Assembly (NCBI GenBank): GCA_018398765.1
Contig: JAHBMJ010000232.1
Coordinates: forward strand, 1-53,087
DNA length: 53,087 bases
Source: Chromera velia
Taxonomy: Eukaryota
Direction: 5' to 3'
A model generated the notes under the pieces. The model worked only from the letters and a program-made list of their open reading frames with translations. It searched no databases and had not been told where the DNA came from. Of the stretch, positions 1 to 50,927 are shown piece after piece. Every line of letters starts with the position of its first letter. Position 1 is the stretch's first letter. A program made the translations under genes and the position numbers.

Positions 1-1720
1 CAATCACCTGCGCCCTTTCTCTGGTATCAAGGATCAGTCTATCCGATGGGTCTCTGTAAATAAGGGTGCTTCCAACGCTGCTTGCAGACTGTCGTTTGAA
101 GAACGAGAAAATTCTGTCCGGTGGTAATTCAGGTCAGTCTGGGGTGGGAGGTTGTCTTCAGAGCGCTTCTGGTGGAAGTCTTGCGTTCCTCGGTCGGTCT
201 GTGACTGTTTTTATTTCTGGAAAGGGGTCTCTAGGGGAATGTATCTGTCAGAAGCGAAGAGATATGGAGGCAGCAGGAGATGCAATTTGCACACGAACTT
301 TTGCTGGGGAAGTGTATCTAGACTTAGTGCCTGGAGGGTTCTCGATGACTGACGGTGGTGTGCATGAACACAGTAGGTGTACTGATCGAGCAAGAAAGTG
401 CTCAAGTTTTCTGGGTCAGTCGCAAAGTCCAAGTTCCTTTGGAGAGTCTCTTCTGTCAGGGTTCGTGCTTGTTGTACTCTTCCTGTTCGCAGTAATCGGG
501 GTGGGTCTCTGAGGAGAACGAATCTGAGGGCTTCTCTGATCGGTGGGGGAATCTGGTCAAAGTTGAGGTGAGGTCTTCCAGGTAAGTTTTGTTGTTGCTG
601 AAGGATCTTGACTGGGTGCGATACGAGTTTGTGTTGTTACTTGTTTTTTTAAATCTGGAAGTTTGAGAATGGAAAAAAAATGGGCAGCGCTTCGCGGTTT
701 GCTCTGGTCTTTTTGGGTGTTCTCTCAAAGGATGAAAGAGGACAGAAAACGAAAATTTAGCAGCGCTTCACGGTTTATTCTGGTTTTGTTTCGGTTTTCT
801 TCTCAAAGGACAGAAGGGAGAATAAAACAAAAATTCGGCAGCGCTTCGCGGTTTGCTCCAGTTTTGTTTCGGTTTTCTTCTTAAAGGACAGAAGGGAGAA
901 TAAAACGAGAATTCTGCAGCGCTTCACGGTTTGCTCTGGTTTTGTTGTGATTCTTCTCCAAGTCAAAGGTGAAGGTCGTTTCAACTCGAAGGGCTCTTAA
1001 AGTTTGTGGTTGATGAAGGCGTCAGAGCGTACCAGAAGCTGGGCGTGAAAGCGTGCCGATGTGGATGGAGTTGAGAAGGCAGAGAAGGAAGTCCGGAGAC
1101 AGCAGGGTCCAAAGGAGCGACAGCTGCCCACACATAGGAGAAGTGCTTAAAGTTTCTGAAGGGTCTCTAGCGAGTGACAGAAGGAACTGCTAGATCCAGC
1201 GCTTGCAGGTGTGGTTGGATGAAGAGAACTCTTTGGTATCGGTTTCTGAAGAAGAGTGGTCGCCCGTACAGTACGAGCTTCTCTCTCGGTCTCTTGTTGG
1301 GGTTCCCGGCAAGGAAGAAAGTTCCCAAAGTTGCCTGGATAGAAATCTTCCAAGTGTCTGTGCTGAGAGACTCGATTGGTCTCCAGCTAGTTTCACTCTT
1401 TGCAGGTTGTGTTCGACTCTTGTGGCAAGTCACCACGTGAACTGCGCTAGTCGGACTTCGTGTCTGAGCCAGGCAGCCAGGTAAAGCTAGAAGAGAACGG
1501 GGCGCCAAAGAGCCTAGAAGGAACACTCACAGAGAGCTAATTGATTGAAGTTGTTTGTGCAAGAAGGTTTAAGACTGAGTTCGATTTTAGACCGGGTTCA
1601 GATTCTTCCAAGTCAGAAGTTCAGTTCAGAGTAAGAATCGAATCTAAAGTTCAGAGAGAATCTTTTTAAGTTCAGAGCCGCCTCCTTCGACGAGCTTGAA
1701 ATCTTTATTTCCAAATCGCA
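1..1720 (-). mobile_element. Probable decayed transposable element segment (class unresolved)
   Basis: Intronless sequence with long semi-open minus-strand frames interrupted by isolated stops, containing a ~77 bp tandem array and adjacent to other TE relics. No diagnostic domain motif recognised. Confidence 0.3.
684..945. repeat. ~77 bp tandem repeat, ~3.5 copies
   Basis: Core GCAGCGCTTCRCGGTTT recurs at 684, 760, 838 and 916 (spacing 76, 78, 78). Confidence 0.85.
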
Positions 1721-1890: not shown

Positions 1891-2312
1891 TAACGCCTGA
1901 TCCAGCGGCCTTGATCATCTTTCCAAGTGGTCTCAAGTTGTGATTTTACCTGCAACACTTACTGTATCTAGCATTTTCCTAGGTGTGCTCCAATTGAGCT
2001 TGAACTCGTTTGGATCCCGTTCCTGCAATTCTATATTTATTTATTTCTTTATAATTATAATCAATGTATTTAATTCATTTTTTTTTCTTATCTCACTTCT
2101 TCTTTATTTCCAAAAACAATTATTCACTAAATCTTTCTAAATAAATCTATTTTTTTTAAATTATTTTTTTATCTTTCTTTTAGACTAAGTACTGTCTTTA
2201 TTTTTATTAGCTGATCAATAATTTAATTCCTATTATTTACTAAACTAATTTAATAATTTCTTTACTTTTAAACTAAGACCATTAGCGATTTCCTCTGTAT
2301 ATTTCTAAGAGT

Positions 2313-2624
2313 CTAAAGTGCAACGGAACAGGGGTCTGTGAGTGGGGGTTCTCTCTCTACGATAAGGTTTACTCTGAGAAGAGAAACCGTCTTACCCAGC
2401 CGCACCAGGACTTGCTGGTCACCACACACACCAACCTCCACCTCCAAAGGGTTCATCAGAGGAACGTCGGGCACCACAGGAGAAAGACCCAGATTTTGGG
2501 ACTCCAAGAATGTGACCTTACATTGGACAAGTCTGCCGAGACATTTGATGATGAGCTAGATGGAGAGATGACGATTGAATACCTGAAGAGCATCGGACTG
2601 GAGTTCAGAGAGGCTCCTTTCTGA
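2313..2624 (+). pseudogene. hAT transposase C-terminal dimerisation domain fragment
   Basis: Translation LKCNGTGVCEWGFSLYDKVYSEKRNRLTQPHQDLLVTTHTNL matches the hAT dimerisation motif (CERxFS...RNRL...L...N), with the conserved R read as W (CGG>TGG). Upstream is AT-rich non-coding sequence, so the ORF is 5'-truncated. Confidence 0.7.
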
Positions 2625-3203
2625 GTCACTATAATTCATCATCACCATATCATAACTCAACAGACGTTCATAGAGCATTAACGTAGGTTAAATGACCCCC
2701 TAGGACGCTAAAAATAGAAGAAATTTTTTTTTAAGGTCTAGTACAGTAGTACAGTACAGTGTACTAGACAGTGTAGATGTTATAGTACAGTAGTATAGTA
2801 TAGTACAGTGTTACACAGTAGTACAGTGTGGTACAGTGTACTTGTGCAACTATAGTTTTTCAGAGTTCTTCCATAGATTCTAAGGTTCCTGTTTGATTTC
2901 CTAGCAATTTTAGTCTTTCTATACTTAATTTAGGTCTTTCATGGTTCCTGTGGTAGCCTTAGTTCAGAGTGGTCAGGAACCACATTTTAGGAACTTGGGA
3001 ACCAAACCGCTGGACACCTACTTTTTGCATGAGAACTAATGAGAACCGGTTAAGAACCAAGCTAAAACATATCACAATAGACTTTTCAGACATTACAATA
3101 TATTCTATTTAATCAATTTTCCTTTAGACAGAATCTGTTTATCATTTTTGATACTAGGAACCAAGTGGGCATTACCATAGGCTGCACACAGTGCGGCCCC
3201 GTA

Positions 3204-3210
3204 GTGTGTG

Positions 3211-3245
<35 letters not shown>

Positions 3246-3285
3246 ATATGTGTGTGTGTATGTATATGTATGCGTGTGTGTGTGT

Positions 3286-3327
<42 letters not shown>
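3204..3327. repeat. Compound (TG)n/(TA)n microsatellite
   Basis: Seen directly in the sequence. Confidence 0.95.
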
Positions 3328-8704: not shown

Positions 8705-10287
8705 TCAGTCCTTCACAACCATCACAGGAAGCTTTGCGTGTTCGACAACGAATTTAGAAACGCTTCCCAGGAAGAAACGGCGAAAGCTTCCCAGCCCACG
8801 GCATCCCACAACGAGGAGGTCACTCTTCAACCTCTCGCCCTGCATGCACAGCACAAAAAGATTAAAAAAAAAAAAACGATGCAGAAAGCATCAATAAAGA
8901 GCTACAGGCATCCCACAATGAGGTCACTCTTCAACCTCTCGCCCTCCGCAGCACATCCAAAAGAGAGGACCAAGAAAGGAACAGAAGTGAAGGAAGGAAG
9001 GAAGAAACGAGAGCAGGCGGCCACACCCCCGCACACATGCACAGAGACAAACAGAGAGAAGCAGGAAGACAAAAGACAAATGTAAATGCAAACACCCATA
9101 CTGCCACCGAGAAAGCAGATGCAAAAGGGGCGAAAAAATCTCCATCACCAACCATACATGACACGGAAGTCTACACATGCAGACACACACACACACACAC
9201 GCACATACACCCCCCCACCCCCACCCCAACACACACACCATACAAGCATACGCTCAAACACACGGGGAGAGACAACAAAAGAGACCCCAAGTAGAGAGAA
9301 AGAAGAAAGAAAGAAGCACACGACCGACCGCCTCGCAAACGAGTGCGCCAATCTGATGAGCGCTCGTGGAGTTCTCCAGAGGAAGGAGCAATTTGAACAG
9401 CTTCGGGTGGTGCTCCTTCAGCTCGGCATCACTGATTCCCCCCTTCAAATTTTTCAGCTTCTCATCCGTTGCCTTCACATATTCCTGGGCCAGCTTCGAG
9501 ACCAACTGGTTGCACTTATCCACCACAGCCTCGTTCTGCTGCTTCACCCTCTCGTGAGTCAGGCCGCTCAGGTTGGAATCGGGCCACACAGCGAAGGTCG
9601 GGTAGGCTGCTGCGCAAAAACGGGAGAGCCCAGGAAACGATGAACACATGCATCGACATAAAGTGCATTCAGAACTCTTCGTGTGACAGTCTCGTAATCC
9701 CCGAACAGGCTGCGTGCCTGCCTGACTGACTGACTGACTTGCGTGACTCTGCATAAGGAGGAGGTGTTCCAAAGTCGCCCTCTCCCAGATGGTGGTCAAC
9801 ACGACAACGTCATTGGGAGTCAGGTCGAGGTGCTTGGCAAGCCAGGCAACGGCACGCTCGCTGTACTCAGAGCTGTCCACGCACACCTACAAGGTAACGC
9901 AGAACACGGCAAACAGGGAGAGGCAAGGGGTGTGGGAATCAGGAAACAGAGAAGAGCAAGCACTTGCTTGAAAATGGTTGGCCTCACAGAGGAGACGGAA
10001 GAAGAGAAATGGCATCAACAAAGAAAACAATGAAGGAACGCACTCGCTCATTCTACATGCGTGTTCGGAGCAGATCACGCCTACAACTGAATGGCCAACA
10101 GAGCACAATCCTGCGCGTTTCTTGCACAGTCCATGCACAAGAAGTTCGATCGACTGACAGTGAAAAGACGGGACTTGAAGTCAGCGGGATCAGCTCCAGG
10201 AGTCTCAGCAGCCTTCTTCTCCCGAAATTCGCTGATCTGACGGAGAAGCTCTTCAATCAGATCGTCAACGGAGCGGTGCTGAGGCAT
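8705..10287 (-). CDS. Universal stress protein (USP/UspA domain), 4 coding exons
   Basis: Exons 10287-10159, 9886-9739, 9609-9329 and 8839-8705, with GT-AG sites and consistent phases. N-terminal motif VCVDSSEYSERAVAW; C-terminal DLLVVGCRGLGSFRRFFLGSVSKFVVEHAKLPVMVVK (G-x-R-G...GSVS ATP-binding USP motif). Confidence 0.92.
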
Positions 10288-11005
10288 CTTTTTGATTCCT
10301 TCTTTGTTTATTTGAGAACGGTTGCAAGTGGTATGAGCCAATCAGCAAACGATGCACCTAATTCTTTTGGAATTCAAGTCAGTTCTGCAAGAGGAAGTTT
10401 CTGCTCAAAGACAACTGTATAACAATCAGTGAAACTGTTTGCATTCCACTCAGTTCTTACTTGGACATCTGTTCAGCTTGCTTCAAATCGAGAGAGGCAA
10501 TGAGACCAGGGTGGTCAGTCGCAGAACCCGTTTTTTGTTGAAAGAGTCGCAACTTTTCAGACTCAAATTCAGTGACGGCTCCAAAAGACTGCATGTATTA
10601 ATATATGAGTCGCGAGAAAAGAACGTATATACGTGTGCGTGACGTGGCGTCCGCGCGCGCGCGCGCGGCCCCCGGTCCCATGCATCAATTGGGCGCGCCA
10701 CTGCGGCGCCGCCGCGCTCAGACTGCAACACAAAAAGAAAAAAAGTTCAATATCAGATCGAGGTCTATATCGGTTGATCATCAATTAATCACATGTTGAT
10801 CATTCAACATGATCGATCGACAGCATCATACAGCATCATCATGCACCATGCATTCCAGCATTGAAATGCGTGAACCAGTACATACATTTGTTTTACTGCT
10901 TCACCTTTAAGGCCCCTCTAAGGCCTATCAGCGTTCATTCTTCTTCTTGAAGAACTTCTTTCTCTGAACATCCTTATCTTCTGTATTGTTGGCGCAAAAC
11001 AACAC

Positions 11006-11425
11006 ATATACCAAGACCAACTCAATTTAGTAAACCCATACAGCAAATTACGATTGTGATTGCAAATGTGAAAAATATTTTTATTATGTAAATAGTCTTT
11101 TGAGACTTACAACATGTTTCTGATAATATTTGTGAAGTCTGTACAAATTTTTAAGTTCGTACACGCCACCGAGTATGTTTACAAAAAAAATAAAATTTCA
11201 AAATTGGGATTCAATTTTTTGGGTTTCCGGGGCCGTCCGGCTTTGAATTTCATATTTTTTGCAAATATAATCGGTGGCGCGTACGAACTTGAAAATTTAC
11301 ACAGACTTCTCGAATATTATTAGAAACATGTTGCAAGTCTTAAAAGACTGTTTACACGATAAAAATATTTGTCACATTTGCAATCGCAATCGTAATCATG
11401 CCAAATTAAGTTGGTCTTGGTATAT
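11006..11425. mobile_element. Foldback MITE with ~160 bp inverted arms and TA-flanked ends (Tc1/mariner-like)
   Basis: Ends ATATACCAAGACCAACTCAATTT ... AAATTAAGTTGGTCTTGGTATAT. Arms pair inward to GTTCGTACACGCCACCGA / TCGGTGGCGCGTACGAAC. Confidence 0.85.
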
Positions 11426-11806
11426 CGGTTGTTCACTGTTTCGTTTCTTTCTTCGCTTACTCTCTAGAGCTCAATCGTTCATTCGTTCATCCAACAAGCG
11501 AATCAAGCAGTTCGTGATATCCTGCTGCTGTGCCTTTATTCGAGGGCTTTTGTGGATGTTTGGTAGCCAGGCTGTACTTCCTTCGCCTACTCCAGACACG
11601 ACCCCCATGAAGATCTCTGGGCCTCTGCCTTCCGAGCTGCTCTGGAACCCTGCTACTTCCTCTACCACGCCACACACTGAACGTTCCGAGACCCTGAACG
11701 CCTCCGGAATCTCTCTTACTGATATATAAGCTGAGTGCTCTTTTTATTGATTCTTCTGCTTTCTGTTTAAATCCCTTCTATCTTTATCAGCAAAGTGATT
11801 CACATA

Positions 11807-12642
11807 TAGGGGTGTAAGAACGGGGGGGGGGGTGCGTTCGAGCTCTTAGGACTCCAGATCCGACGGGGTCCCCCCCGTTCGAGCTCTAGGGAGATCAGAC
11901 CCTGTGAACAGGGACCCCCCCGTTCGGAGAGCTCCAGGTAAGAAAAAGTGCTAGGTTATAAAGACAACCTAGATGATGACCTTCATGAAACCTAAACTAA
12001 TATTCTCAACTCTAACTCAAAACATACTTAAACTTTTGAAATTCTAGCTAAAATCTTCTTATAACATTTTGTAACTTGAATAAAATTAAGTTCAACATGA
12101 ATTGAATTTAACTCCGTCATATAATAGAGATTAATCAGCTTCTAATTTTTTCTAATTTATCATTAAATAAAGAATGGCAAAGGCAAAAACACTTGTGATA
12201 TAGATATTAGGTGATCGATGTGCCCTTTTGAAGTACGAATCTTCACAGCATCTTGAAAGGACTTCAGAGGGAAAGACAATGAAAAAATTAATGGTCGGCA
12301 ACGGATCAGCAATCTCAATGTCCGGGCTTAAACAGCAGCATCAGTAGTAGTGAGCGGTGTGAGGGTATCACAGTCAGCAGCAGTGTAAGGCAAGAGAAAA
12401 CAGAATAACCATACAAGAAAGCGACTGTTCACAGAAGGCGGGGCATGGCGGGGTAAGTGAATCATTCAGTAACAGACTCAAAAAATTAATTTTGATCGCG
12501 CGTACAATTTTGAAACTCTGTGCGCCCCCCCCCCCCTTTTCNCCCTTTTCGATCTGACGGGTCTCCCCCCTCATCGGGCAGGCTCCTGCCTGCCCCGCCG
12601 ACGGGGTCCCCCCCCCTGTCCAAAAGAGATTTTACACCCCTA
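11807..12642. mobile_element. Non-autonomous hAT-like TIR element
   Basis: Termini TAGGGGTGTAA ... TTACACCCCTA. Flanks share ATTCACATA / ATTCGCATA (degenerate TSD). Repeated subterminal CGACGGGGTCCCCCCC motifs near both ends. Confidence 0.7.
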
Positions 12643-13821
12643 TATTCGCATAATAATAAGACAGCAAAATCCGTATGCGTTGTTTTGTCTTGGCTTTGAA
12701 TCCTGCTTTATGAACTGACTCCATGTATGCAGGAGGGAGCGTCTTGACCACCCAGGACCGAGAGGCAAGCGCATTGAAGGAGGAAGACAGGTGGAAGGAC
12801 TGGGAGATGGTTGAACTTCCTGACAAGAGGGCGGAGGATGTCGACGATAAGCTCCTTGAATGGCGGTCTTCTCCTTCTACTGACTTGCAGCCGCAGCATG
12901 CAGAGAGGGAGAGAAGGGGGGGGATGAAGAAGAGTCTCCATGACCCCTCCATCCATCCATCTCACCCAGGGGGTATTAATACAATGTTATGCATGAGGGT
13001 AGACCTATGGCAGTGCTAGAAGGGGGTATTTTTATTCACACAGCAAATTGGCAGAGGTTGGACATGAACAGCCGCTTGCTCGTTGTCTTATCTTCAAGAA
13101 TTAATGTGTGCAAAGAGGGAAAAATGCTAATACAGGGGCTGAGAAACCAGGGGGCAGCGAGAAGAACAAAAAGATTGTGAAGGCCCCTGTCATATTAATC
13201 GGCGGCAGTAGCAGTAGCAGCGGTAGTTGGAGGAGTAAACGGGGGTGTGAGCAGAAAGTCTGGTATGCCCATGCACTGTTCAATTCAATTCCCGCCTTCC
13301 AGAATCAGAGAAATATTCCCGGAGAGCGCGGGCGATGGGAATGGATTGCAGGGGCATGGGGAGCAGGAGCAGGAGGAGGGGGAAGGGGGTCTAGGGATTT
13401 TTTTCTGGCGTTCAGCTTCTCGTTTCTACTTCCCTCTGTCAGGTCTCCCTCTTTGATCCTGTCAAGTTCCGAGTCCACACCCATGCACCCTGACAGAGGG
13501 CACCTTTCCCCTTCCGTCTATCATAACAGATAAGGCTGTTCCTCTTCGAGACGTTTTCTCCATGGGCACTCAACCGGTTGACCAGTACTTGCAGCAAGAT
13601 TAGCGCAAACACCGGGAGGGATCAATTGTGGATAGGGATCAGGAAGACCTATCTTTTCGCCTGCTTGTATCCCCCTTTTAATCGCGTCTCTTTGGTACCT
13701 CAACGCCTATGCAGACCTCCGAAGGCTGCTGTGTGTGGCTGGTATTCCCCGACAAGAAGCCAATCAATTGATTAAACTGGGAAAAATGTTCGCTACTTTC
13801 AGATCCTTCTCGCTCCAAGCT

Positions 13822-14766
13822 GCTGTCTTCTGTCAAGGAGTGGCCGTTGTGCACCCTCACTGACGTTGTGCTACCTTTTATTAAGGAGTGGCCGTTGTAC
13901 GCTCTCACTGACGTTGTGCTGTCTTCTGTTGAAGAGTGGCCATTGTGCACCCTCACTAACGTTGTGCTGTCTTCTGTCGAGGAGTGGCCGTTGTGCGCCC
14001 TCATTGACATTGTGCTGCCTTCTGTTGAGGAGTGATCATTGTATGCCCTCACTGACGTTATGTTGCTTTCTGTTGAGGAGTGGCCATTATATGCCTTCAC
14101 TGACGTTGTGCTGCCTTCTGTCAAGGAGTGACCGTTGTATACCCTCACTAACGTTGTGCTGCCTTCTGTCGAGGAGTGGCCGTTGTGCGCCCTCACTGAT
14201 ATTATACTGCCTTCTATTGAGGAGTGGCCGTTGTGTGCTCTCACTGACGTTGTGCTGTCTTCTGTCGAAGAGTGGCCGTTGTGCACCCTCACTGACATTG
14301 TGCTGTCTTCTGTCGAGGGGTGGCCATTGTGCGCTCTCACTGACATTGTGCTGCCTTCTGTCGAGGAGTGACCATTGTATGCCCTCACTAACGTTATGCT
14401 GCCTTCTATTGGGGAGTGGCAGTTATGCGCTCTCACTGACGTTGTGCTGTCTTCTGTCGAAGAGTGGCCGTTGTGCACCCTCACTGATGTTGTACTGTCT
14501 TCTGTCGAGGAGTGGCCGTTGTGCGCTCTCACTGACATTCTGCTGCCTTCTGTCGAGGAGTGACCATTGTATGCCTTTACTGACGTTATGCTGCCTTCTG
14601 TCAAGGAGTGGCCGTTGTGTGCCTTCACTGACATTGTGCTGCCTTCTGTCAAGGAGTGACCGTTGTATACCCTCACTGACGTTGTGCTACCTTCTGTCGA
14701 GGAGTGGCCGTTCTGCACCCTCACTGACGTTGTGCTGCCTTCTGTTGAGGAGTGGCCGTTGTACGC
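13822..14766. repeat. 48 bp minisatellite, ~20 indel-free copies
   Basis: Consensus GTTGTGCGCCCTCACTGACGTTGTGCTGCCTTCTGTCGAGGAGTGGCC; gives 16-aa repeat ORFs on both strands. Confidence 0.95.
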
Positions 14767-15464
14767 TCCGGGTCCTCCCCCTTTACCCCATTGCTGCTGG
14801 TACCCCTCTCTCCGAGCCTTGCTCCCCCCTCAGCGCTCACTCTTTGCACTTAATTCTCCCCTGGTGGCTCGTTTGGAGGCACCTGCTGACTGCCCTGTAG
14901 TGGGCCGCCTGCCTCCTTACTCACATAAAGGCGTATATCTGCAGGCCCACAGGTCCTGTCTAGGATTGCCTGCCTTATAACCGAGGGAGGAAGGGGGAGA
15001 GAAGATGAACCTGAAGGGCCAGGGGGGAAGACGGGAGGAGGGCAAGACAATACCGCATAGACAGACAGAAAAGGTCGATCGGGGAGGGGTATGTGGAGAG
15101 AGAGAGAGAAAGAGAGGCGAGCGGCATCAGTTCGTTCTATTGGCTTCTTGAGAGCCCAGTCACTATGACGGACAAGCGTGTGGGGCAATCTGCAGTAGTA
15201 CGGAATGCGGCTCCTCACGGAGCATGCAGGGCTCTCTGCAGCACTGCGATGTGTGGAGGGACTCTCTGGAACTCAAATCATCAGAAACTCCCCCTTTGGC
15301 TTCCCTTAATTTCTTCCACATAATTGAAGTGGGAACAGACACAGAGATGAGCATACCTAAATGCCATGCAGACTGCACGCTCCTCTTGAAGGGCCTCTGC
15401 TACCGATGGAGGAAGCAACTCTAGAAGCAACTCCTGTGCCTCTTTTTTTTTTTGCCTTCCCGTG

Positions 15465-15871
15465 AAAGGCATTGACTGGGTTTTCCATGATTCGGCCTCT
15501 GCTTAGTACCTGGCTCTGTGATCTGTCATTGGTTGCTTGGTCAGAGCATGTTGCAGATGGGGGTTGAAGTTTTGAAGTGGCAAGCATGTGAGGTCGTCTT
15601 TGCGGTAGCTTTAAGTCTGCTGAAGGCATTGAGTCAGACTAGGTTTTCCGTGATTCGGCCTCTGCTTGGTACCCGGCTTTATGATCTGTCATTAGTTGCT
15701 TGGTTAGAGCGTGTTGCAGATGGGGGGTTGAAGTCTTGAAGTAGCAAGCATGTGAGGTCGTCCTTGCGGTAGCTTTCAGTCTGCTGAAAGGCATTGACTG
15801 GGGTTTCTGTGATTCGGCCTCTTCTTGGTACCTGGCTCTATGATCTGTCATTGGTTGCTTGGTTAGAGCAT
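15465..15871. repeat. ~160 bp tandem repeat, ~2.5 copies
   Basis: AAGGCATTGA...GATTCGGCCTCT...GATCTGTCATT recurs near 15465, 15623 and 15787. Confidence 0.9.
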
Positions 15872-16598
15872 TATAGGGGAGTAGAGAAGTAAACTGATTC
15901 AGGCAACAAACGTATACGTGATGCGGGTACCCCTCCTAGCACCCTCCCAAGCACTCGTCTCCCTAGAGCTTCCAAAGGAAAAGACAGAATGGTTCCTCAT
16001 CAGTTCAGCATATGATCCCGGGGTTTCCACCCCTCAGAAGCTCCTCAGCCCAGCCTCCAGGTTTTGTTCCTTCTCTCCACTGTCCAGTGAGAAAAAAACG
16101 TCCAGTAAGAAAAAAAAAAGGAACTGAGAGAAAGATCGGACCCCCTGTCCTCCCTCCTATGCTTAGCCCAACCTCCTAAAAGCTGTCAGATGAAATAAAG
16201 ATCTTGACGCTGTTTGAATTTCGCTTTTGTACCCTTTCACTGTATAACACCCTTTCTTGCACTGCTGCCACCGCCTATTTATTGATTGATTAATTAATTA
16301 ATGCCAAACCCTAGGTGGAGTTAGAACTCCCGGGCGGTGCATACATGCATGGATCTGTTTAATTATACCAGCTGCAAGCTAAGTGGACGACAGTTATTGG
16401 AACTTAATCTAATCAATCATTTACCATAATATGATGAGAAATTTTAAAGAGGAGAGAGGGTTGAGAGCGCAAGAGCGATGTGATGAACTTGTGAACCCCC
16501 AGATCAGAAAAGGAGGTGGATGCAAAAGGTGAGTCACAATGAGTGAAGCGGTCTAATTAAATTAATGCCAACCACTGTAAAAAGCCTTGTTTGGCAGT

Positions 16599-19500
16599 CT
16601 ATCGGGGGCAGACAGAGAGCCGATGAATAAAATCATCTACACACCGGCAGCAGGCTTTATAGATGCACAGCTTTCTATCAGAGCAACCAACAGGTAGCCC
16701 ACCTTGCCCGCCCATCGAGTTGTATGTCAGCATGCGCAAAAAAGAAGAGATTGAGCCATCCGTAACCAACAGGGCAGAACGGGGAAGGGTAGAGACAGAA
16801 GGAACACCAGAGGACGACTTGCTGCATAAGAGGAAGACAAACATACGGCGGGAGGACGGGAAGTCGCGCTGCAGAGGGGTGAGTCTAGCAAGGAGGAGAA
16901 AGTGAGAGGAAGATTGCCCATCATCCTCAGAAGCCTTCATGCATTCCTTTGCAACTGTTTGTCTCACCTTGCCCTTGAAGAAAAGTGAGCCGGTGCCTTG
17001 TGCCCTATGACCATACTGCCTGCGTTGGGAAGACAGATCGGGCTCGACCCTTAGCGAGCGGACAGAAATCAAATCAGCCCAATGAAGCAGCCTGTCTATA
17101 AACCTTATGAATTGTTGGCAGCAGTTATTCTTCCAGACATGCAACATGGCTGCAGGAATAGTATGTGTTGTGATGGAAAGAGAGTGCCACCAGTCAGCCA
17201 CGCGGGAGCAGAGAAGGGCTTTGCAGGGAAGAAGACCAAGGATGCAAAGAGAGGGCAGGCGGAGGCTGCAAGCAGACAAATGACCATACTAACGGGCAAA
17301 CCGAAGCTACAAAGCATCAAAAGCGAGCAGGTCTGCATCCCGTACTGGCAGACATTCAAGGCAGTAGAGCGCTACGGGGGTCCAGCAGGCTCTAAAGACT
17401 GTTACCTGCGCGTCAATACTGAGCGGGCCCATACTCACAATCAACCCAATTACCCCTCCTAAAGCTCACGAAGCAGAAGCAATACGGGACTCAATTGTCT
17501 TGTTCAAGTACCCCCTTTCAAAGAAAACACACCCCAGATATTTGTATTCGGATGTCTATTCAACTTCCCTCCCACCATACATGACTCTACCTGCAGACTG
17601 CCCCAGAGCCAAGGCAGACAGGCGTAAGATTTTCGTTTTCTTTAAGTTCACAGTCAATCCCCATTCCTTGCAATACCCTTCCAAGGCTGAGAACTTCTTT
17701 TGCAGATCTGAGACGGAATGAGCAAGGAAACAGAGATCATCCACATACCCCAGACTGCCTAAGATACAGTTGTCAAGGAGGACAGGTTCGGGCTCTCTCT
17801 CGGGCTCCTTGATGCTGCCTTTCCCCATTCTGCTGTCTGACCATCCTGCTTCTTCTGCTTCTCTGTCTACGGCCCCCTCGTTCTTACTAACTGAACATAC
17901 ACGGGGAAGGTCATTGATATAGATAAGAAAGAGAATGGGAGAGAGAGCATCACCTTGTTTTACCCCAGTGCCCTCCCAAAAACACAAAGAGTCCCCGTCT
18001 ACCTTTCCCCAGACCTCCCTGTATATTTCACAAATCATACACACATCTGCCTCACACACACCTTCTTTTCTCAGTTTCTGAATTAACTTACCTCTCGGCA
18101 CAGTGTCAAAGGCTTTGGAGAAATCAACAAAGCCTGCCAGCAGAGCTTTCTTTTTCTTTTTAGAGGAGAGAATGGCAGAGACAAGCGCGCCTACTCCTTC
18201 TTTCGTTCCCACCCCTTGTCTGAAACCTGACTGCCTGACGTTAAGCTCAACTTGAGAGCGCACACGGCCATCCATCAGCAAACCAAAAAGTTTTGCGAAA
18301 GGGTTGACAACATGAATAGGCCTCCATTCATTGGGAGAGGGAGAGGCAGGGCCTTTAAAGACAGAGCAGATACGCAGCATATTCCAGGAGGAAGGCCAGC
18401 AAGCAAAGATATGCATACAATACAATAAAATAAAAAGAAAAAAACGAGAGAGCGCCGAGTGCGTAAAATAAAGGTCAAGCTAAGCGAGGGAGATTCTTTT
18501 AAGGCCAGAGGCTTTCTTTCTATTCATTTTCTTTAGAGCAGAAGAGATTTGATGGAAAGAGAAGGGCAAAATAGAAGGGTGGAAAGGGGGAGGGGCAGGT
18601 GGGGCCCGGAGGGCGGAAGGGAGAGGCTCTTCATTCTTGTCTTCAAACACCCCCGCCCAATAATTCGAGAACTCACGTGGAGAAGGACGGGAGGCTCTCC
18701 CAGTTGAGGCAGCTTTTTTCTTTCTCCTCCAAATAGCAAACGGGTCTTTTAACAACTCTTCTTATACCCTCCGGGCTTGTGCCCTCTCCCATGCAATTCT
18801 CTTTCTTTTGAACAGAGTACGACGGACCCGGAGAAGCCTCTGCAGTCTATCGAACTCTATTCCCCTTCCATTCCCATCTCTCACTAGCTTCCATCTCTTG
18901 TCTGCCTCTCTAACCTCTTTCTGTAAAGCTTTACATTCCGAATCAAACCATGCCTTTCTCTTTGATCGTCTACCTTCTGGGCCAGGCCCCTTGTCCCCTG
19001 TCTGCTTGATTGGCCCTACCAGCACACGCGACCATTCCTCAACTAACCTGTGCAGACATGCACGATCGTCACCGCCCTCCGAAGTCAGCCCTGGTTGGGG
19101 ATGCGGGGATACTGGGGGAGGTAGAGGAGCAGGCGGCTCCTCAAATGGTTCGATCTGCTCATGATAGGCCCACAAGCCAGGCCATCAATCCTCAGCAAAC
19201 GATTTCACCGCTGCTGCAAGCGATGCGATTTCTTCATCAGAGACTGGGGCTGTGCGGTTTGAACAGAAAAAGGGAGGACAATCAGAGAGGTTTTGGTGGG
19301 GTGGGAGAGCATCTTCAGATTCAGGTTCGGCCGAGGGAGGGGAGAAGGAGAAGGAAACGGTCACATGGTCGGGGGAGGCAATACCATCAAAGTTAACCTC
19401 CCAATCAGAAACCCTCTGTATAGTAGATGGATCAGTAAGTATGTAATCAATGAGGGAAGTGGGCGTAGACATGCTGCTCTGTCTGGAATAGTAAGTGCAC

Positions 19501-21113
19501 TCACCAGGAAAAACAAAGGACTCTCCCCCTGCTTCTCCTGTCAGTCCATTCAAAGGAATAAGATTCGTATCACTACAAATTTGAATAAAGTCCCTCCCAC
19601 TGCGGTCAACGTCTTTGCTGCACTGAGATGTGCAGACAAACGAGGGTCTGTCAGGCTTCTCCGAGCCCTCATCATTTTCTCCCCTCCCATCAACCCCCCC
19701 AGAATCCCTCGGCAGGAGGAGGAGATCTGCATGGGACCACAAAAGATTTTTGGGGATGAGGCTGCCTGAGTGTGCATTGAAATCCCCTATCACCACCCTC
19801 AGGCTGTCTGCCTCAAGAAGGACCCCCCCAAATACATCCTTCAAGAGGTCAGGGACCCTACTGTCCCTATGATCGGACCAGGACCTAGGAAGGTAAAGAC
19901 CGAATACATGCACCCTGCGCCCACCTACTGTAATCTTTACTTTAACTAGACTCGGGCCCACAAGGGAGATTTTGGGTTTCAGCTCGCTCCACCATTCCTT
20001 TTTTATAAGCACACAAACACCCCTACTCCTGCCGTCCCTATCATGGGCTGCTCTGCGCATACCTAATTACTGCCGGTACCACTCACGGTGGCTGAAGTTT
20101 TTGCCTTTCCACCCCCCACAAGAGATGTCCCTCATTACATCCATTGCTTTTGTGAAGATGGCTAGGTCAGGATCTTTCTCGGCTAGCCAACAGGAAAGGG
20201 AACCGTTGTCTTCTTTACTTCTCACCCCATTCACATTCAATAATGAAAAACGGACCAAGGCATCCCTCACTCTAGCCACGGCTGCCATCTCTTTCTCTTT
20301 CTCTTTCCGCCACTCTTTCTAAAACTCCCTTCGCAGCTCTTCGCAGTGATTCAGGTTTGCTGCCGGCTCCTACGTGTGAGAGAAATTCCCGCCCCAGTCA
20401 ACCAGGTATTCCCTTTCCCCCCCTTCCCCGTTCATACGAGTATGAAGGCTTAGCACCCGCACAATCTCCCACTCCAGCTCTCGGCTGGCAGGCTCCCCTG
20501 CTTCACTCGGCTGCTGTGACGTGCCATGCTTACGGTTGCCTCCCCTGCACTTTTTCCCTTTCCCCCTGCAACGCTTCCTAACCGACCTCTCCTTCGAAAT
20601 AAAAAACATATCAGATACAAAAGATAGAACAGACAAGCCTTCACCGGAAGGAGAAGGTGCCTGACTGCAAGGGGAAGGGGGACAGGAAAGAGAATCAACA
20701 TCAGGGGTATGAAAGGACGGAGAAGAATTAAATAGAGGAGAAGAACAGTCTGACTTGCCTGCAAGGGCATTAAGCTCGCCGCCGCTCACAGATCCTTCGT
20801 CCATTACACACTCTGACAGAACATCAAAACGATTGCCATGAAAGACAGAGGGAAGGGGAGAGACAGGGGCCGAATGCCCTTTTCTACGTAGATCGAATTT
20901 CACGTCACACCATTTCAATGAATCAAGAAAGACATCGCAAGGTGTGGTGCCCGGAGAAGAACACAACTCATTGACAGAGACAGAAGACAACCAGGCACAC
21001 AAATCACATATCTCCTTTCTGAGGGCCTCCCTCTCTTTCAGGAGACCTAACAATTTCCTTTTCAGCTATGGGAGTCCAGTCGGTTCAGAGGGGGAAGGAG
21101 GACTCCTAACCAT
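16599..21113 (-). pseudogene. LINE ORF2: chromodomain - apurinic-like endonuclease - reverse transcriptase - CCHC zinc knuckle, with in-frame stops
   Basis: The listed ORFs starting at 21053, 20288, 20060, 19175, 18755, 18425 and 17279 all share one frame. APE motifs LLNVNG, GDFNAH, SLIDYI, SPDH. RT motifs WRPI, QSGFR, FVDFSKAFDTV, GVKQGDALSPILF, YVDD, VNLKKTK, EYKYLG. C-terminal CIYKACCRCVDDFIHRLSVCP. Confidence 0.93.
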
Positions 21114-21151
21114 ATGCCCTTCCCCCCAACTCTTCCCGTCTCTATCCGAAA

Positions 21152-22220
21152 CTAATGACCAAAGCCGGGGGTAGCACCCCCGTCTCCGTTTCCCGACTCG
21201 GGTCTCACTTGCACCGGGGTCTTGAAAACCATACCACCCTTATGAGACGGCTGCGGGAGCTGTCTGGCTTGCTGTTGTTGCTATTGGGCGTACATTGCAA
21301 AGTTTAATGCAGCAGTGCTCGAGGTTTGTAGCACCACGGCTGCTACCGCATTCTGTTGTACGACCACGGCTGCCAGTGGTGAACCCATCATGTGAGAGTC
21401 GGCAGCCAAATTTTGTTGGGGCGGTATAAAGAGGAATGGGTGCTGCTGCAGTGGCGGTGCAGGTGCCCTGGGAATCGGTTGAGTGGACTCACTCACCCCT
21501 TCCTTCAGCAGAAGGGCCTGAGCCCTCTTTTTGTCCTTAGCGGATGCCCTGGCATCGCCAAGTGTGCTTTGCGTCCAGAAAATTCTGCCAGCTTTCTCTT
21601 CTTCCTCCATCTTCCTGAGCACATACTTCATAGATCCGGTGCGAACAAAGGAGAGGACATTGTACTGCACGGAGCGGTTGGAGGCGCAGGCCTTGAACAG
21701 ACCGTCAAACTCTTCCACATCTTTTTTACGTTTGAATTCAACAGTAAGTTTGGAGACCCATTTGTAGTTCTTGCTGCAGAAGATGGATTTCGCAGCGTCG
21801 TACAGCTGAGAAGAACAGGAGATCACTTCATCTATCTGGCACACTTGTCCATTGAAAGAGAGAGAAAAGGTGAGCAGGACTAAGTCTTAGTCTCTGAGGA
21901 AGGATTGGAATTGCTACCACTTCCTTACCTCATTAAGAGAGAGGCCCAGCACCATACGTAAGCGAGGGACGGGGTCTTTCTCCTCATCAGAGGGCTGAAG
22001 ACTCAGCACGGATGATTCGATCTTCTCAATTGACTTCTCATATTTCTCAACCCTTCTCTCATTCTGACCAATCCGGTTATCAAGGTTGTCAATCTGTTTT
22101 ATAACGATATCAAATCTGCCGTCGAAGTACTCCCTCTGAAAAGCTGTCTGTTGGTCAAACAGTGCTTTTATTTTAGGAAGGGTGGCCCCCCCGTTGCCAG
22201 AGGGGAGATCAAAGCCACTA
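21152..22220 (-). pseudogene. LINE ORF1-like protein with coiled coil, with in-frame stops
   Basis: The frame of ORF 21281-21844 extends upstream through two stops into FDGRFDIVIKQIDNLDNRIGQNERRVEKYEKSIEKIESSV (heptad pattern), and downstream through a TAG within a Q-run (YAQ*QQQQ). Different frame from ORF2. Confidence 0.7.
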
Positions 22221-23547
22221 AGAGTTAATTATTAATTTATTAATAATTATTTATTAATTTTATTTGAAGTTATTATAATTAATGTGTTATTTTGCCCGGA
22301 GCTAGGTCTGACGGTTATAGACATTCATTCATTTAATCTAGTATCTAATTATTATATTAAATTCATTGCAAATCTTTATAAAATTGTTATAATAATACAT
22401 TTTTAATACCCCAGCTAAGCTCTAATCTAGTATTAAATCTAGGCTCTAGTAGTGATTCGATCGGGTCTATAATTGTGTAATAATACAGTCAGCACAGGGA
22501 AGGATCGAAAGAGGTAGAGTGCTGACTGCCTATCACTTAGGAAGAAAGAGAGTCGAGTGGAATGGAAAGATGGATGGAGATATAGGTAGACGGTATAAAA
22601 GAATGTACCGTAAAGATCAGTGGGAGAGCTATAAATATACCTAGGGAACTTGGGGATGTCCCAACGGAGAAATCTCGTGCAGAGACTTAGAGAGAGATCT
22701 CGTACAGAGAAGTCTGTTCGACAAGGACTCTTTGCTAGTACCTTGTATTGATTGTTTATAATGCTTTGTTTGCTTGCATGCATAAGATTGCATGCATTTG
22801 TACTGCATGCATGGATTTACTGCGGATCAATACAGTATCGAGTGCCCCAGCATGCCCGATTGATTGGCTTGCATGGGCGTGGTGCGTACGTGCGGAGGCC
22901 ACGGCTTAATGCTTGGGCCTTTCTATAGTCGTGAGTGCAGTGGTTACATAGGTGACACTTTACGATTGGGTATGAGCAGACCCGGGAGAGAAAGGGGCAA
23001 GGAAATAATTGTGGGAGTTACTAGCAAGGTTACTAGGAGTTACAGTGGGACAGCTTGAAGGCAGACCCCGAATAACCCCGGAAGCGCTCTGAGTAGCGCT
23101 CTAAAAATTATTTGAGAGCTTTGTATTTCATTATACTCAGCTGAATTCGCTAAACATTGTCAGTGTCTCTCTGACTCGCTGTTTTTTGTTTTTTCTTCTG
23201 ATCTAGCCTCTGATTTCAAATCTAGTTTCAACTCAACTTTGCCATTAAAATCCGAATCTTCAGTGTACCATCTCTTGAAGTACTAGTTGAAGTAGAGCTA
23301 AGATCTTGAAGGAGACTTGCATGAACATAGATTACCAGGTCTAGTGCCAGGTGCTAGGCTCCGACGGCTATAGTCATTCATTCATTCAATGACCGCTCTA
23401 TTGCTTGGAATTTGTTCTAGATCCACTGCATTTCTATTTCGATTTTTGTATACTTACTTATTTACTTAATAGAGCATAAAATGATCGAGGTATGATTGAG
23501 CAAATTGCACCGGTTCCTAGAAATGTTTCAGAGTGGAAGTCGTTCAA

Positions 23548-31275: not shown

Positions 31276-34200
31276 AAATGAAAGAAAATCAACGTGTCTG
31301 ATGGAATTCCCCCCCCGTCTTTCTCTTTCTGTCTCTGCCCTCTAGAAAACAACACTTATCGACCTGTCAGATCCTTTCACACCCCCGACCTCTCAAAAAA
31401 CCGATATCTGTTTCTTCTTCCCCCTTCTTTTCTTCATGTACATAACAGACAAAACCGATAGACAGATAGACAAACAGACAGACAGACAGACAGACTCACC
31501 TGTCCCCAAAGAAGACCATCCACCACGCGATTGTCTCCAGGAGTCTTCTCCTGACGTTGTCGCTTCTGTCTGCCACCAGAGCGGCCAAGTAGTTGACCTT
31601 GTTGAAGTTCTCGTAGAAGGCCTTGATGGGCACAACGTTGGGGTCAAACCAACCGATCATCATCTGCACTCATTCATTCATTGCATCATCGCATCGTGCA
31701 GTCAGCAGAGGGTCAGTGAAGAGAAGGCGAAAAACGAAGGCCCCTTTTGTGTACCCATGCATGATCATGCAAATCTATCCAAATGGCTTCATGATCCCCC
31801 ATTGGAAGGCACCGAGGGAGAGAGAGAGAGAGAAGACCGACACGGACAAAGAGAAAGAGAAAGAGAAGGAGAGAAATGGGCATGGGAGAAGAGAAAAACA
31901 ATGAGGCGGAAAGAGACGGGATGAATGCTGAGAGGGCTCGAGAACGGTAAGTAGATCCTGTGCAGTGAATCAGTCAGCCAATGAGTCAGGTATCTCTTCT
32001 CAATCTGGCCGCTCATTTCTCCTCATCTCCGTGGCCTTCCTCTTCCCTCTTGATCGCCTCTTCGGCTTCGCCGTCCTATTTCCCTCTGTCTCCTTCCTTG
32101 CACCCTTCCTCTCTGTCTGAACAACCGCACCTCATCGCTTCTTTTCCGAAAGACTGGCACGTTCGTTGCCTGGTTAATTCTGACTGCAGGCTGACCTACC
32201 TCAATCACACAAGCGTTGTACTTGTAGAGCCCGCAGTGCAGGACTGCCGTCAGTGCATCGATCGCAGCAAGTCGGACCTGCATTTATAAATTGAAAGAGA
32301 AGGGACCATTTTCCAAATACCCATTCAGATGCTCATTTCACTGCACGCACACACACCCTTTCATCATGAGTCACAGAAATGACTCAAACGCAAAGGGGTG
32401 AGCAAGCACAGAGAGAGCCAAAGAAGGGGACGGGACATAAACTGCAGAGCGACGCACAAACCGCACGAATCAGGTCAAAAGGAAAGGGGTGGTCGATGGA
32501 GCCTATTGCTCAGATCGGATTCGCTCTCTCTTTCCATTGGGCTTTAGGAAGCATCCTGACTCAATGCGAAACAATTAAACGAAAGATGGATGCGGGCAAA
32601 CACATGCAGACAGACACATACATGCCCAAACAAACACGCATGAATGTACTGACCCTTCCGTGTTGATGGACGAAGCAGGAAGTGAGACACCTGATGGATG
32701 GATGGATGGATCGATTGATTGATTGAGTAGTCCATCGAGAGCAAAGATGTGAACAATCACACACATATGATAGGAGATGAGATTAAGGAGCAAGGGAGGC
32801 TACGAAGCTTGAAAAGGACACAAGAGAAGCACCAGAATTCACCGGAGATTCCGATAAAGCGAGCAGGAAAGAAAAAAAGCTCTTCGACGAAATTTTATTC
32901 TTTCCCAAATGTATAAATGAGAGTAGACACACAACAAAATACTGAAAGAAGAGCGGTATAGGCAGATATCCCAACACGAAACCTCTGGTGGCTGAAGAAA
33001 GAAGCTCTGAAAAGCGAACAATGAATCCCCCCTTCTTCCATCCTTCCTTCTGCGTCTCATTTCTTTTGCCTCTCTTCATTTCCATTTACAGACCTGCCGA
33101 GGGTCTCTGTGAAGTGAAACAAGAGAGGCGAGTGATGCAGACAGAACTGCTTCAGCATACCGCAGCCCTGCAGGCATAGAGAAGAAAGAGAGAGAGGAAC
33201 TTTGTTTTCAAAGTACTTCTACACGACACGCGCCTAGTCCAACACAGAGCGATGATACACACACGAGAAGAGGAGTGCCACACTGGGCTTTTTTCCTTTG
33301 GCACGCACGCGGAACCAGACCGACAGACAAACAAAAAGTAGGATAAAAGTCCGCATGGACGCACGCACGCATGCACCTACCCACCTTGAGTTTCATGTCC
33401 GGACAGGGGTCCATGCAGGCAGCGCGAAGGAGACCGGTGGCCTCGTCGACGTGCGAGTAGACCTGCAAGGGGCAAGGGGGCCCGGGGGGTCCGTGCAGAC
33501 ATTTAGAGACACAGAAGAGAAGAGAGAATGGAGGAAGAAGTTGACTCAAAGCAAGAGAAGAGGGGGCAAATTTTGGTTGAGTGGGGGGAGAGAAGGGAAG
33601 TGACGCACTGGAAGGTATGGGCAGGAGGGGCACACAAAGGCAAACAAAAGAGGAAGGCCGATAGGCAGATCTAGACGCAGCAGAGAAACAAACAAAGAAA
33701 CAGAAGGAGGAAGGAGGCAGAGGAGATAGATAGAGACCCACCGCTTCCTCAGGACACCGCTCCAGGAGGAGAGCGATCAATCGCAAAAGTTCCAGCCGCA
33801 CCTCTTCACACTCTTCCACTGGTCGAATCTGGAGGACGAGAGCGACACATGGACAGATACGTGAGTCAAGCATAAGGCAAAAGAAGCGGAGGAAAGAAAG
33901 CGGAGCATTGCGATTGCCCCGTTCTCCGATCCTGTCTGCTGGATTCAATCAATCAAGTTCTTTTGGGAGAAGAGAGAGGGCTACCCACACAGGCATTGTT
34001 CGAGTCGTAGTGCTTCACAGCCTTCCCTCCCATTCCTCTTTCTGTGCTTCCTTCCCTTTCTCCTTCCTTTCCTACTCTGGGTCAATGTCCGCCAAAGAGC
34101 ACACACGGATGGATGGACAAGCCGACCCACCTCTGTTGGTTTCTGCTCTGGGTCTGGTCTCATTACTGTGGGCAAGTGTGCGACCCTGCAGGCAGACAGA

Positions 34201-39590: not shown

Positions 39591-39625
<35 letters not shown>

Positions 39626-39632
39626 CACACAC

Positions 39633-39673
<41 letters not shown>

Positions 39674-49765: not shown

Positions 49766-50268
49766 CTGGCTTCAAGAAACGGGCAGCAAACAAACTGTTG
49801 CCACGGCCGTCTCCGGCAGCCTGGAATATCCGGTAAAAGCTCTTTTCGGCGTCTACGATGAGTCAATTTCAGTACAGTATCGAAATAACTGACACAATCC
49901 ACGGCTGTGAGATGAAATCTGACAATCTATATAAGAGACAATCAGTTCCACGGTGTCCGAGACAAACAGAGCTTAGAGAAGGAAATTCACGGGGGCAGCA
50001 TCGTGCCGTATGACGTTGGGGCCCGGATGCTTGAGTAAAGTCTGCGTCGTTCTCACACTGCGAGTAAAGAAACAGTGATACTAGAGCTGGAAATTGAGGA
50101 AGACTGGTTCGACGTGTTGTCAGACTTCCATGTCAGAACCCGCGCCACCAAAATCGCGCAGGCGCTCAGACCGAGTCAGGGCTTGCAGGACACGCAAAAA
50201 GTTTTTTTTACCGCAATTCATGGCACACAAAAAGTTCCTTACTAGCATTCCATGCGATACAGATATAA

Positions 50269-50604: not shown

Positions 50605-50927
50605 ATCGTGAGCTGTGTGACTTTGATTTCTTTTTTCTCTTGAATAAACGTCTTTGCCGTCTCTGCCGTCTCTGCAGGTTACTTGGAGCGACTGACTCTC
50701 TTTCTGGACGGCGTTTCTCGGAAAGTTGGTCTTCTTCGATTTGGACCCTTTTTTGCCCCCCCCCTCCCCCTTCCCTCTATGTGTGTGTGTGTGTGTGTGT
50801 GTGGATGGATGGATGGATAGATGGATGAATAGATGGATGAGTGGTTGGGTGGGTGGGTAGGTAGGTCACTGAGTGTGAGGGTGCACGCAAGCTAGTTCAG
50901 AGGTTGGGTGTACAGAGCTAGCAGGGA

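What the first reader, a model, noticed from the sequence alone, without database searches (positions are those of the whole stretch)
16599..21113. LINE ORF2 killed only by C>T/G>A nonsense changes: evidence for a RIP-like repeat hypermutation system outside fungi
Seen: one uninterrupted frame of ~1,500 codons with no frameshift, but stops at 21066 TAG, 20370 TAG, 20319 TAG, 20067 TAA, 19185 TGA, 18762 TAA, 18480 TAG, 17556 TAG, 17466 TGA, 17307 TAG, 17289 TAG and 16599 TAG (the last may be the real stop). Where conserved motifs suggest the ancestral residue, each stop is one transition away: chromodomain HT[W]EP (TGG>TAG, a CpA on the other strand), RIASAS[R]A (CGA>TGA), DAL[Q]LRF (CAG>TAG). 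Missense changes agree: YADD reads YVDD (GCG>GTG) and the expected APE glutamate reads K. Established: many nonsense transitions with no indels, in CpA as well as CpG context, is the hallmark of fungal RIP (RID/Masc1) or of deamination of densely methylated repeats. Inference: the host genes do not look like a filamentous fungus, so this may be an undescribed repeat-targeted mutagenic defence in an alveolate-like lineage.
Basis: partly seen in the sequence, partly recalled or inferred. Interest (0 to 1): 0.88.

Follow-up and report, generated by a model that had tools for sequence, protein, structure and literature searches.

The report
All-context C-to-T decay of Chromera repeats
In the alga Chromera velia, a dead LINE retrotransposon and a neighbouring tandem repeat have decayed almost only by C-to-T changes on both strands and in all four dinucleotide contexts, which likely reflects an undescribed cytosine-modifying process acting on repeats in a species reported to lack the usual DNA methyltransferases.

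Summary
One minus-strand frame (21113-16599) carries a chromodomain-like motif, an APE domain and an RT domain, with 12 stops and no frameshift. The host is Chromera velia, not a fungus. Five of five stops compared with close copies are sense codons there, so this is decay, not readthrough. Against other copies, 451 of 476 differing places are transitions, balanced between strands. In an adjacent 48-bp tandem array, 94 of 99 changes are C:G>T:A, at rates CpG 0.26, CpC 0.15, CpA 0.14, CpT 0.07, against 0.003 transversions per site. The bias is therefore not CpG-only. Classical RIP marks are missing: no CpA preference, RIP indices unmet, no one-strand tracts. A published table lists no RID, DNMT1, DNMT3 or DNMT5 in Chromera, only four DNMT2, but it has visible false negatives. 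Most likely, dense all-context methylation of repeats by a non-canonical enzyme drives gradual deamination. A dedicated RIP-like system remains open. Methylation, the enzyme and repeat-specificity were not measured.

The parts
16277..22224 (-). Apparently full-length, dead, multi-copy non-LTR retrotransposon (LINE), about 5.9 kb
   Evidence: 2778 contigs of run X1 lie on 16000-22400; summed depth is 31 on the 3' flank, 16,855 in the 3' bin and 494-1094 in the bins between 20708 and 22205. Loose ends at 22223/22224; a flank contig covers 16000-16309. A TAAT/CAAT-type tail lies at about 16277-16300. No target-site duplication recognised.
21152..21886 (-). Putative ORF1, broken by a TAG at 21281-21283 in a glutamine-rich stretch
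   Evidence: Other copies carry the sense letter at 21283. No convincing Pfam family.
16599..21113 (-). ORF2 frame of 1505 codons with 11 internal stops and a last TAG that may be the true stop
   Evidence: Stops 20370, 20319, 17556, 17466 and 17307 are sense in close copies. Stop 18480 aligns to Q in a 62%-identical relative. Stops 21066, 20067, 19185, 18762 and 17289 were not resolved.
20295..20470 (-). Chromodomain-like motif just upstream of the endonuclease
   Evidence: Pfam Chromo E=1.9e-4, 21.8 bits, below the 25.1 cut-off (stops read as X). Best PDB matches are HP1alpha/CBX5, CDYL2 and MPP8, E=4e-4 to 1.6e-3.
19188..20260 (-). Apurinic-type endonuclease (APE) domain; the N-terminal glutamate reads K in this copy
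   Evidence: Pfam Exo_endo_phos E=1.1e-5, 25.7 bits, on 19188-20066. Row 20150.
17559..18479 (-). Reverse transcriptase domain (YVDD for YADD)
   Evidence: Pfam RVT_1 E=6.4e-23. Closest proteins are named Chromera velia RT-domain proteins.
13821..14766 (.). 48-bp tandem array of 19.7 copies inside a 383-codon open frame; an independent record of the same C:G>T:A decay
   Evidence: No protein relatives found among 7988 candidates scored.
10900..23500 (.). Repeat-rich island holding the LINE, the array, a 163-bp repeat and an inverted repeat
   Evidence: TpA o/e 0.55-1.05 in its five segments against 0.35 in the gene-rich stretches 24-42 and 43-50 kb. CpG o/e 0.43-0.62 in the LINE, the array and the stretch between them, against 0.70-0.72 in the gene-rich stretches.

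Best explanation
This is a dead chromodomain-bearing LINE of Chromera velia whose cytosines, like those of the neighbouring tandem array, have turned to thymine on both strands in all four dinucleotide contexts, likely because repeats in this genome are densely cytosine-methylated by a non-canonical enzyme and deaminate gradually. Shown: the element, the host, the spectrum, the strand symmetry and the context order (CpG first, then CpA, then CpC and CpT). Inferred: that the change is confined to repeats; that it goes through 5-methylcytosine; that it accumulates gradually rather than in bursts; that the writer is one of the 4-5 PF00145 genes reported for Chromera, four of them classed as DNMT2. 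The chromodomain would likely steer new copies into heterochromatin, where they are marked and decay.
For: Transitions make up 451 of 476 places (run X1) and 446 of 472 (run X2); A>G 132 against T>C 129. Of 53 visible rows, 46 are C:G>T:A in this copy, in contexts CpG 17, CpA 13, CpC 8, CpT 8, against 5.9, 12.6, 13.2 and 14.4 expected from availability. Eleven of 12 amino-acid differences to P0002 over 178 codons are C>T/G>A on this copy. Array: 94 of 99 raw changes and 48 of 55 parsimony events; non-CpG C>T 53 of 434 against transversions 3 of 946 and T>C 2 of 354. CpG exceeds non-CpG (p=1e-4 on raw counts). Strands are interspersed (runs test P=0.30 array, P=0.16 LINE) and the load per unit is even (mean 5.1, variance 2.4). 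The array's spectrum implies an equilibrium near 3% GC, while the gene-rich stretches are 51-52% GC with TpA o/e 0.35. Chromera has 5 DNA_methylase genes and about 30 Mb of TEs; Vitrella has 0 and 1.5 Mb. Recalled, not from a call: methylated CpG in mammals mutates some 30-fold above the transversion rate, the same order as seen here.
Against: No methylation data were seen. The only enzymes listed are DNMT2-type, and species with only DNMT2/DNMT6 are reported to have undetectable 5mC (passage); DNMT2 DNA activity is very low or disputed. Unique neutral DNA could not be compared between strains. Dense non-CpG methylation by DNMT2 has no precedent in the papers I read. A 340-bp MITE-like pair differs at only 1 site, and P0002's copy has at most 1 change of its own, so not all repeats are hit (age could explain both). 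CpG o/e is not lowered in two repeat-rich segments (0.71, 0.73). Array counts are not independent because units share history. In the one complete stretch, CpC was hit 0 of 99 and CpT 1 of 82 times, so the non-CpG rate beyond CpA is uncertain in the LINE.
Confidence: 0.5

Rival explanations
1. A dedicated RIP-like system, evolved independently of fungi: homology between repeats is sensed, and an enzyme (a DNMT2 paralogue or a deaminase) converts C to T in transient passes. Several passes would mix the strands.
For: Transition:transversion ratio of 18 in the LINE and 32 in the array. A LINE, a tandem array and short repeats all lean the same way. Load is uneven between copies: P0002's copy is almost clean against 11 hits here. 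No canonical DNA methyltransferase is listed. A review states that such a system may have evolved outside fungi (passage).
Against: In Neurospora 91.9% of RIP clusters are on one strand (passage); here strands alternate at a load of only about 2.4-4.4% of positions. No CpA preference and RIP indices unmet. DNMT4/RID is reported confined to fungi in one survey; another finds related DNMT4 only in diatoms among MMETSP species. A linked 340-bp duplicate is 99.7% identical.
Confidence: 0.2
2. A genome-wide C>T mutation bias (for example weak repair of deaminated cytosine). It shows only in unselected repeats, while genes and introns stay GC-rich through selection or GC-biased gene conversion.
For: All contexts are hit and CpG only about twice as often as the rest. 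No canonical DNMT is listed. Unique DNA was not measured directly.
Against: Intron-rich gene stretches are 51-52% GC and strongly TpA-poor (o/e 0.35) against 0.55-1.05 in the repeat island. Microsatellites beyond 24 kb show 0 CA>TA among 63 flanked CA units and 2 GA>AA among 76 GA units (slippage purifies such tracts, so this is weak).
Confidence: 0.15
3. No methylation: heterochromatin shields repeats from uracil repair, or a chromatin-bound deaminase acts there, so unmodified C decays to T locally.
For: Fits the regional composition, the strand symmetry and the lack of canonical DNMTs.
Against: Does not explain the CpG preference. A 40-fold excess over transversions would need near-total loss of repair. 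No direct evidence.
Confidence: 0.11
4. Programmed readthrough or RNA editing, APOBEC-type editing of the cDNA, or an assembly or library artefact.
For: A long frame with no frameshift. Contigs of a run guessed to be RNA carry the sense letters, but contigs collapse copies.
Against: Stops are sense in other DNA copies. Strand-symmetric, 132 against 129 (p=0.90). A tandem array shows the same spectrum. A contig of run X2 matches 21777-21985 with 0 differences across two sites where most copies differ (tables 3 and 8).
Confidence: 0.04

Closest known systems
Repeat-induced point mutation (RIP; RID/Masc1/DNMT4) of Neurospora and other Pezizomycotina
   Same: Repeats decay almost only by C:G>T:A, non-CpG cytosines included, without frameshifts.
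   Different: Host is an alveolate; CpG is preferred over CpA; RIP indices unmet; no one-strand tracts; no RID listed for the species; link to a sexual cycle untested.
Passive deamination of methylated transposons (DNMT1/DNMT3/DNMT5/CMT systems of animals, plants, diatoms and Agaricomycotina)
   Same: Strand-symmetric, gradual, CpG-preferring C>T decay in repeats, with CpG depletion.
   Different: Non-CpG cytosines are hit about 40 times above transversions in the array. In Agaricomycotina the excess was CpG-only (passage). None of these enzymes is listed for Chromera.
DNMT2-linked retrotransposon control in Drosophila, Dictyostelium and Entamoeba
   Same: DNMT2-only inventory with an effect on retrotransposons.
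   Different: DNA methylation there is trace-level or disputed. I saw no report of a 95% transition spectrum. A C>T/G>A report for Entamoeba LINEs (Harony et al. 2006) is recalled, not read.
Chromodomain-bearing retrotransposons (chromoviruses, Chronos, CoDi-I)
   Same: A chromodomain on the retroelement's enzyme protein, thought to target heterochromatin (passages).
   Different: Those are LTR elements with the domain behind the integrase; here it is a non-LTR element with the motif in front of APE. C-terminal chromodomains in fungal Tad1-type LINEs are recalled, not checked.

Membership tests
Fungal RIP | Changes overwhelmingly C:G>T:A | tested here: met
   451 of 476 places are transitions; 94 of 99 in the array
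Fungal RIP | Confined to duplicated DNA | tested here: inconclusive
   Only indirect composition contrast; a 340-bp duplicate is nearly unmutated; no second strain
Fungal RIP | CpA preference and RIP indices of the Neurospora type (thresholds recalled: TpA/ApT above about 0.89, substrate index below about 1.03) | tested here: not met
   CpG 0.26 against CpA 0.14; indices 0.70 and 1.46
Fungal RIP | Clustered one-strand tracts per pass | tested here: not met
   Runs tests P=0.30 and 0.16. Against this: 8 of 10 neighbour pairs within 10 bases share a strand in the LINE, but 15 of 37 within 5 bases in the array. Several passes could hide tracts.
Fungal RIP | RID/Masc1 (DNMT4) homologue | not testable with these tools
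   No genome held; published table gives 0 for Chromera but has false negatives
Fungal RIP | Acts in the premeiotic sexual phase | not testable with these tools
   Needs crosses or staged material
CpG-only methylation decay | Excess C>T limited to CpG | tested here: not met
   Non-CpG C>T 53 of 434 against 3 of 946 transversions; 29 of 46 polarised LINE sites are non-CpG
5mC-driven repeat decay (any context) | 5-methylcytosine present on the repeats | not testable with these tools
   No methylome seen; literature searches found none for Chromera
APOBEC/AID editing of retro-cDNA | One-strand G>A on the sense strand | tested here: not met
   132 against 129, p=0.90
Programmed readthrough or reassigned stops | Stops shared among copies | tested here: not met
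   5 of 5 stops compared with close copies are sense there
APE-type non-LTR retrotransposon | APE followed by RT in ORF2 | tested here: met
   Pfam PF03372 and PF00078 above their cut-offs
APE-type non-LTR retrotransposon | Dispersed copies, 3'-weighted, with a simple tail | tested here: met
   Contig cover rises steeply to the 3' end (summed depth is not a copy number); tail seen
APE-type non-LTR retrotransposon | Target-site duplication and clade placement | not tested
   No duplication recognised by eye; RTE-like motifs are recalled only; no tree built
Chromodomain (PF00385) | Score above the Pfam gathering cut-off | tested here: inconclusive
   21.8 bits against 25.1 with two stops read as X; PDB chromodomains at E=4e-4

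The most novel reading that the evidence does not exclude
Chromera velia has independently evolved a RIP-like genome defence in which expanded DNMT2 paralogues, normally tRNA methyltransferases, have become DNA enzymes that mark or directly deaminate cytosines of repeats in all contexts: a dedicated repeat-mutating system outside fungi, without RID.
Probability: 0.2. Interest if true: 0.92.

Novelty: new variant of a known kind. Interest (0 to 1): 0.67.

Why it matters
Chromera is a photosynthetic close relative of the apicomplexan parasites and is filed as having no DNA-acting cytosine methyltransferase. Its repeats nonetheless carry the footprint of heavy, all-context cytosine modification. 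Either the species has an unrecognised DNA methylation system, perhaps from DNMT2 paralogues, which bears on the long dispute over whether DNMT2-only genomes methylate DNA; or it has a RIP-like defence outside fungi. Both can be tested directly on a cultured alga whose genome is public.

Tried and rejected
No whole genome was held, so no genome-wide copy set or proteome scan was possible. A metagenome scan with the RT found 442 pattern matches and 0 confirmed. No listed holder was on record as RNA; this says nothing about expression. Contigs of run X5 (RNA guess) and X9 differ from this copy by roughly 4-12%, but contigs collapse copies, so I do not read them as young active copies. The array's open frame had no protein relatives; its lack of stops is no sign of selection, because the unit has no CAA, CAG, CGA or TGG codon in frame (read from the sequence). 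The stop count and its CpA context were rejected as evidence. Short repeats are less extreme and hard to polarise: inverted repeat 15 transitions to 4 transversions, 163-bp pair 14 to 2, 78-bp pairs 9 to 0 and 12 to 6; three-way counts include misaligned ends. The representative-protein search and the Atlas search did not complete, so intact full-length relatives and the identity of ORF1 remain open. Earlier scan findings: nothing in 4 look-ups. Literature: 0 papers for RIP plus Chromera and for Chromera plus cytosine methylation, methyltransferase and transposons. The listings showed no title on Chromera methylation or on RIP outside fungi. Supplements of PMC9998398: no Chromera row in the 12 of 23 files searched. 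Supplements of the bioRxiv 6mA survey were not seen and may bear on Chromera.
Full report
Observation. The minus-strand frame 21113-16599 has 1505 codons and exactly the 12 stops listed; the other five frames have 33-100. It holds a chromodomain-like motif (Pfam Chromo E=1.9e-4, below cut-off; best PDB matches HP1alpha, CDYL2 and MPP8), an APE domain and an RT domain. A putative ORF1 lies upstream at 21886-21152. Read laying bounds the element at about 16277-22224 and shows many related contigs, with cover rising steeply to the 3' end, as expected of a 5'-truncating LINE (the tool warns that summed depth is no copy number).

Host. The closest RT proteins are named Chromera velia (50% and 96% identical). 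A host exon at 37986-38237 is 100% identical over 94% of its length to a Chromera velia BTB protein, and a DNAAF5-like repeat is found at 33211-33948 (E=3.6e-4). The host is an alveolate alga, not a fungus.

The stops are private damage. Other copies read TGG at 20370 and 20319. P0002 reads W, R and Q at 17556, 17466 and 17307 and has YADD. A 62%-identical relative has Q at 18480. Five stops were not resolved. Loose ends show CGG, not CGA, at 17466, with four transitions within nine bases covering all four contexts. The number of stops proves little: simulation gives 9.1 under C>T only and 7.6 under a flat spectrum for 200 substitutions, and two thirds are TAA/TAG either way. Most laid contigs lack 6 bases at 18602, so the copy is free of frameshifts but not of indels.

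Spectrum in the LINE. Of the places where at least 10% of laid depth differs, 451 of 476 (run X1) and 446 of 472 (run X2) are transitions, with A>G 132 against T>C 129. Only 40 of 696 rows were shown and all 17; their union is 53 rows. Of these, 46 are C:G>T:A in this copy, 6 run the other way (3 at full share, so true A:T>G:C changes here) and 1 is a transversion. Contexts are CpG 17, CpA 13, CpC 8 and CpT 8, against 5.9, 12.6, 13.2 and 14.4 expected. The top-40 selection probably under-counts CpG, and neighbours were taken from the window. In the complete 581-base stretch the counts are CpG 9 of 64, CpA 4 of 70, CpT 1 of 82 and CpC 0 of 99, with clustered sites missed by the tool. At protein level, 11 of 12 differences to P0002 over 178 codons are C>T/G>A on this copy, and P0002 has at most one change of its own.

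Independent record. The 48-bp tandem array at 13821-14766 shows 94 of 99 changes C:G>T:A from the majority unit: CpG 41 of 158, CpC 18 of 119, CpA 25 of 177, CpT 10 of 138. Transversions are 3 of 946 and T>C 2 of 354. Allowing for shared history, parsimony gives 48 of 55 events, with 2.5, 1.67, 1.0 and 1.0 per column for CpG, CpA, CpT and CpC. The process acts on DNA, on both strands, and is not CpG-only.

Is it confined to repeats? This was not measured directly. The array's spectrum implies an equilibrium near 3% GC, yet the intron-rich gene stretches are 51-52% GC with TpA o/e 0.35, against 0.55-1.05 across the repeat island. CpG o/e is 0.43-0.62 in and beside the LINE against about 0.70 in genes, though two other repeat-rich segments are at 0.71-0.73. 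Against a blanket effect on repeats, a 340-bp MITE-like pair 1.25 kb apart differs at one site, a CpG transition.

RIP or passive decay? In Neurospora, 91.9% of RIP clusters lie on one strand (PMC7296669, passages). Here the strands alternate (runs P=0.30 and 0.16) and the load per array unit is even, although 8 of 10 very close pairs in the LINE share a strand. RIP indices are 0.70 and 1.46. This fits gradual deamination better than one burst; several light passes cannot be excluded.

The enzyme problem. A 2018 table lists 5 DNA_methylase genes for Chromera and 0 for Vitrella (PMC5890265, passages and supplement rows). A 2025 table lists 0 for DNMT1, CMT, DIM2, DNMT3, DRM, DNMT4, DNMT5, ChloroDNMT, DNMT6 and orphans, and 4 DNMT2 (PMC12344493, supplement row, half the table and passages). 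That paper states that DNMT2-only species have undetectable 5mC, and a review calls DNMT2 DNA activity very low or disputed (PMC5699548, passages). The table has false negatives: Phaeodactylum shows all zeros although PMC9998398 gives it DNMT3, DNMT5a and DNMT6 (passages). Four or more DNMT2 also occur in several other rows. Absence of a canonical enzyme is therefore likely but unproven.

Prior art. The genome paper reports about 30 Mb of TEs and has no occurrence of RIP, methyltransferase or methylation (PMC4501334, passages). A review lists RIP as fungal and allows that it may exist elsewhere (PMC9246332, passages). In Agaricomycotina the excess is CpG-only (PMC3318451, passages). The bioRxiv 6mA survey does not name Chromera in its main text. 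Chromodomains are described for LTR elements (PMC5348765, passages; listing only). Searches returned nothing, and the listings of 22, 28, 30, 38, 49 and 58 showed no report of this pattern in Chromera; most subscription journals are not covered.

Verdict. Best reading (0.5): repeat-confined, all-context cytosine methylation by a non-canonical writer, with gradual deamination. A dedicated RIP-like system has 0.2, a genome-wide bias 0.15, local repair shielding or a deaminase 0.11, and readthrough, cDNA editing or artefact 0.04. It works like methylation-driven repeat decay and is not a member of fungal RIP on the features tested. Interest 0.67.

Noticed in passing
window 50263-50612 and 51514-51864: Two copies of a 340-bp MITE-like element with about 30-bp terminal inverted repeats, 99.7% identical and 1.25 kb apart; the one difference is a CpG transition.
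   Followed up: partly
window 13678-14829 (-): A 383-codon open frame made mostly of a 16-residue repeat; no relatives found. It may belong to another mobile element next to the LINE.
   Followed up: partly
window 20295-20470 (-): Chromodomain-like motif in front of the APE domain of a LINE ORF2, closest to HP1, CDYL and MPP8 domains; an unusual position for a retroelement chromodomain.
   Followed up: partly
P0002: A predicted Chromera protein that joins an almost unmutated 178-residue piece of this LINE's RT end to an unrelated C-terminal part: a chimeric gene model or an exonised copy.
   Followed up: partly
window 11047-11396: A 151-bp inverted repeat, 87% complementary with a 48-base loop, AT-rich; 15 transitions and 4 transversions between the arms.
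   Followed up: partly
window 675-946, 1779-1884, 15463-15871: 78-bp, 18-bp and 163-bp tandem repeats in repeat-rich stretches; the 18-bp array's changes fall almost all on CpG.
   Followed up: partly
window 3204-3327: A (TG)n tract heavily mixed with TA, unlike the nearly pure (CA)n tracts in gene introns; it may record CpA-to-TpA decay.
   Followed up: no
window 2001-3000, 22225-23500, 42001-43000: AT-rich patches (36-39% GC) with TpA o/e near 1; possibly older, more decayed repeat relics.
   Followed up: no
window 9257-9886, 33211-33948, 37968-39775: Host genes: a universal-stress-protein-like exon (weak), DNAAF5 and a coiled-coil BTB protein.
   Followed up: partly
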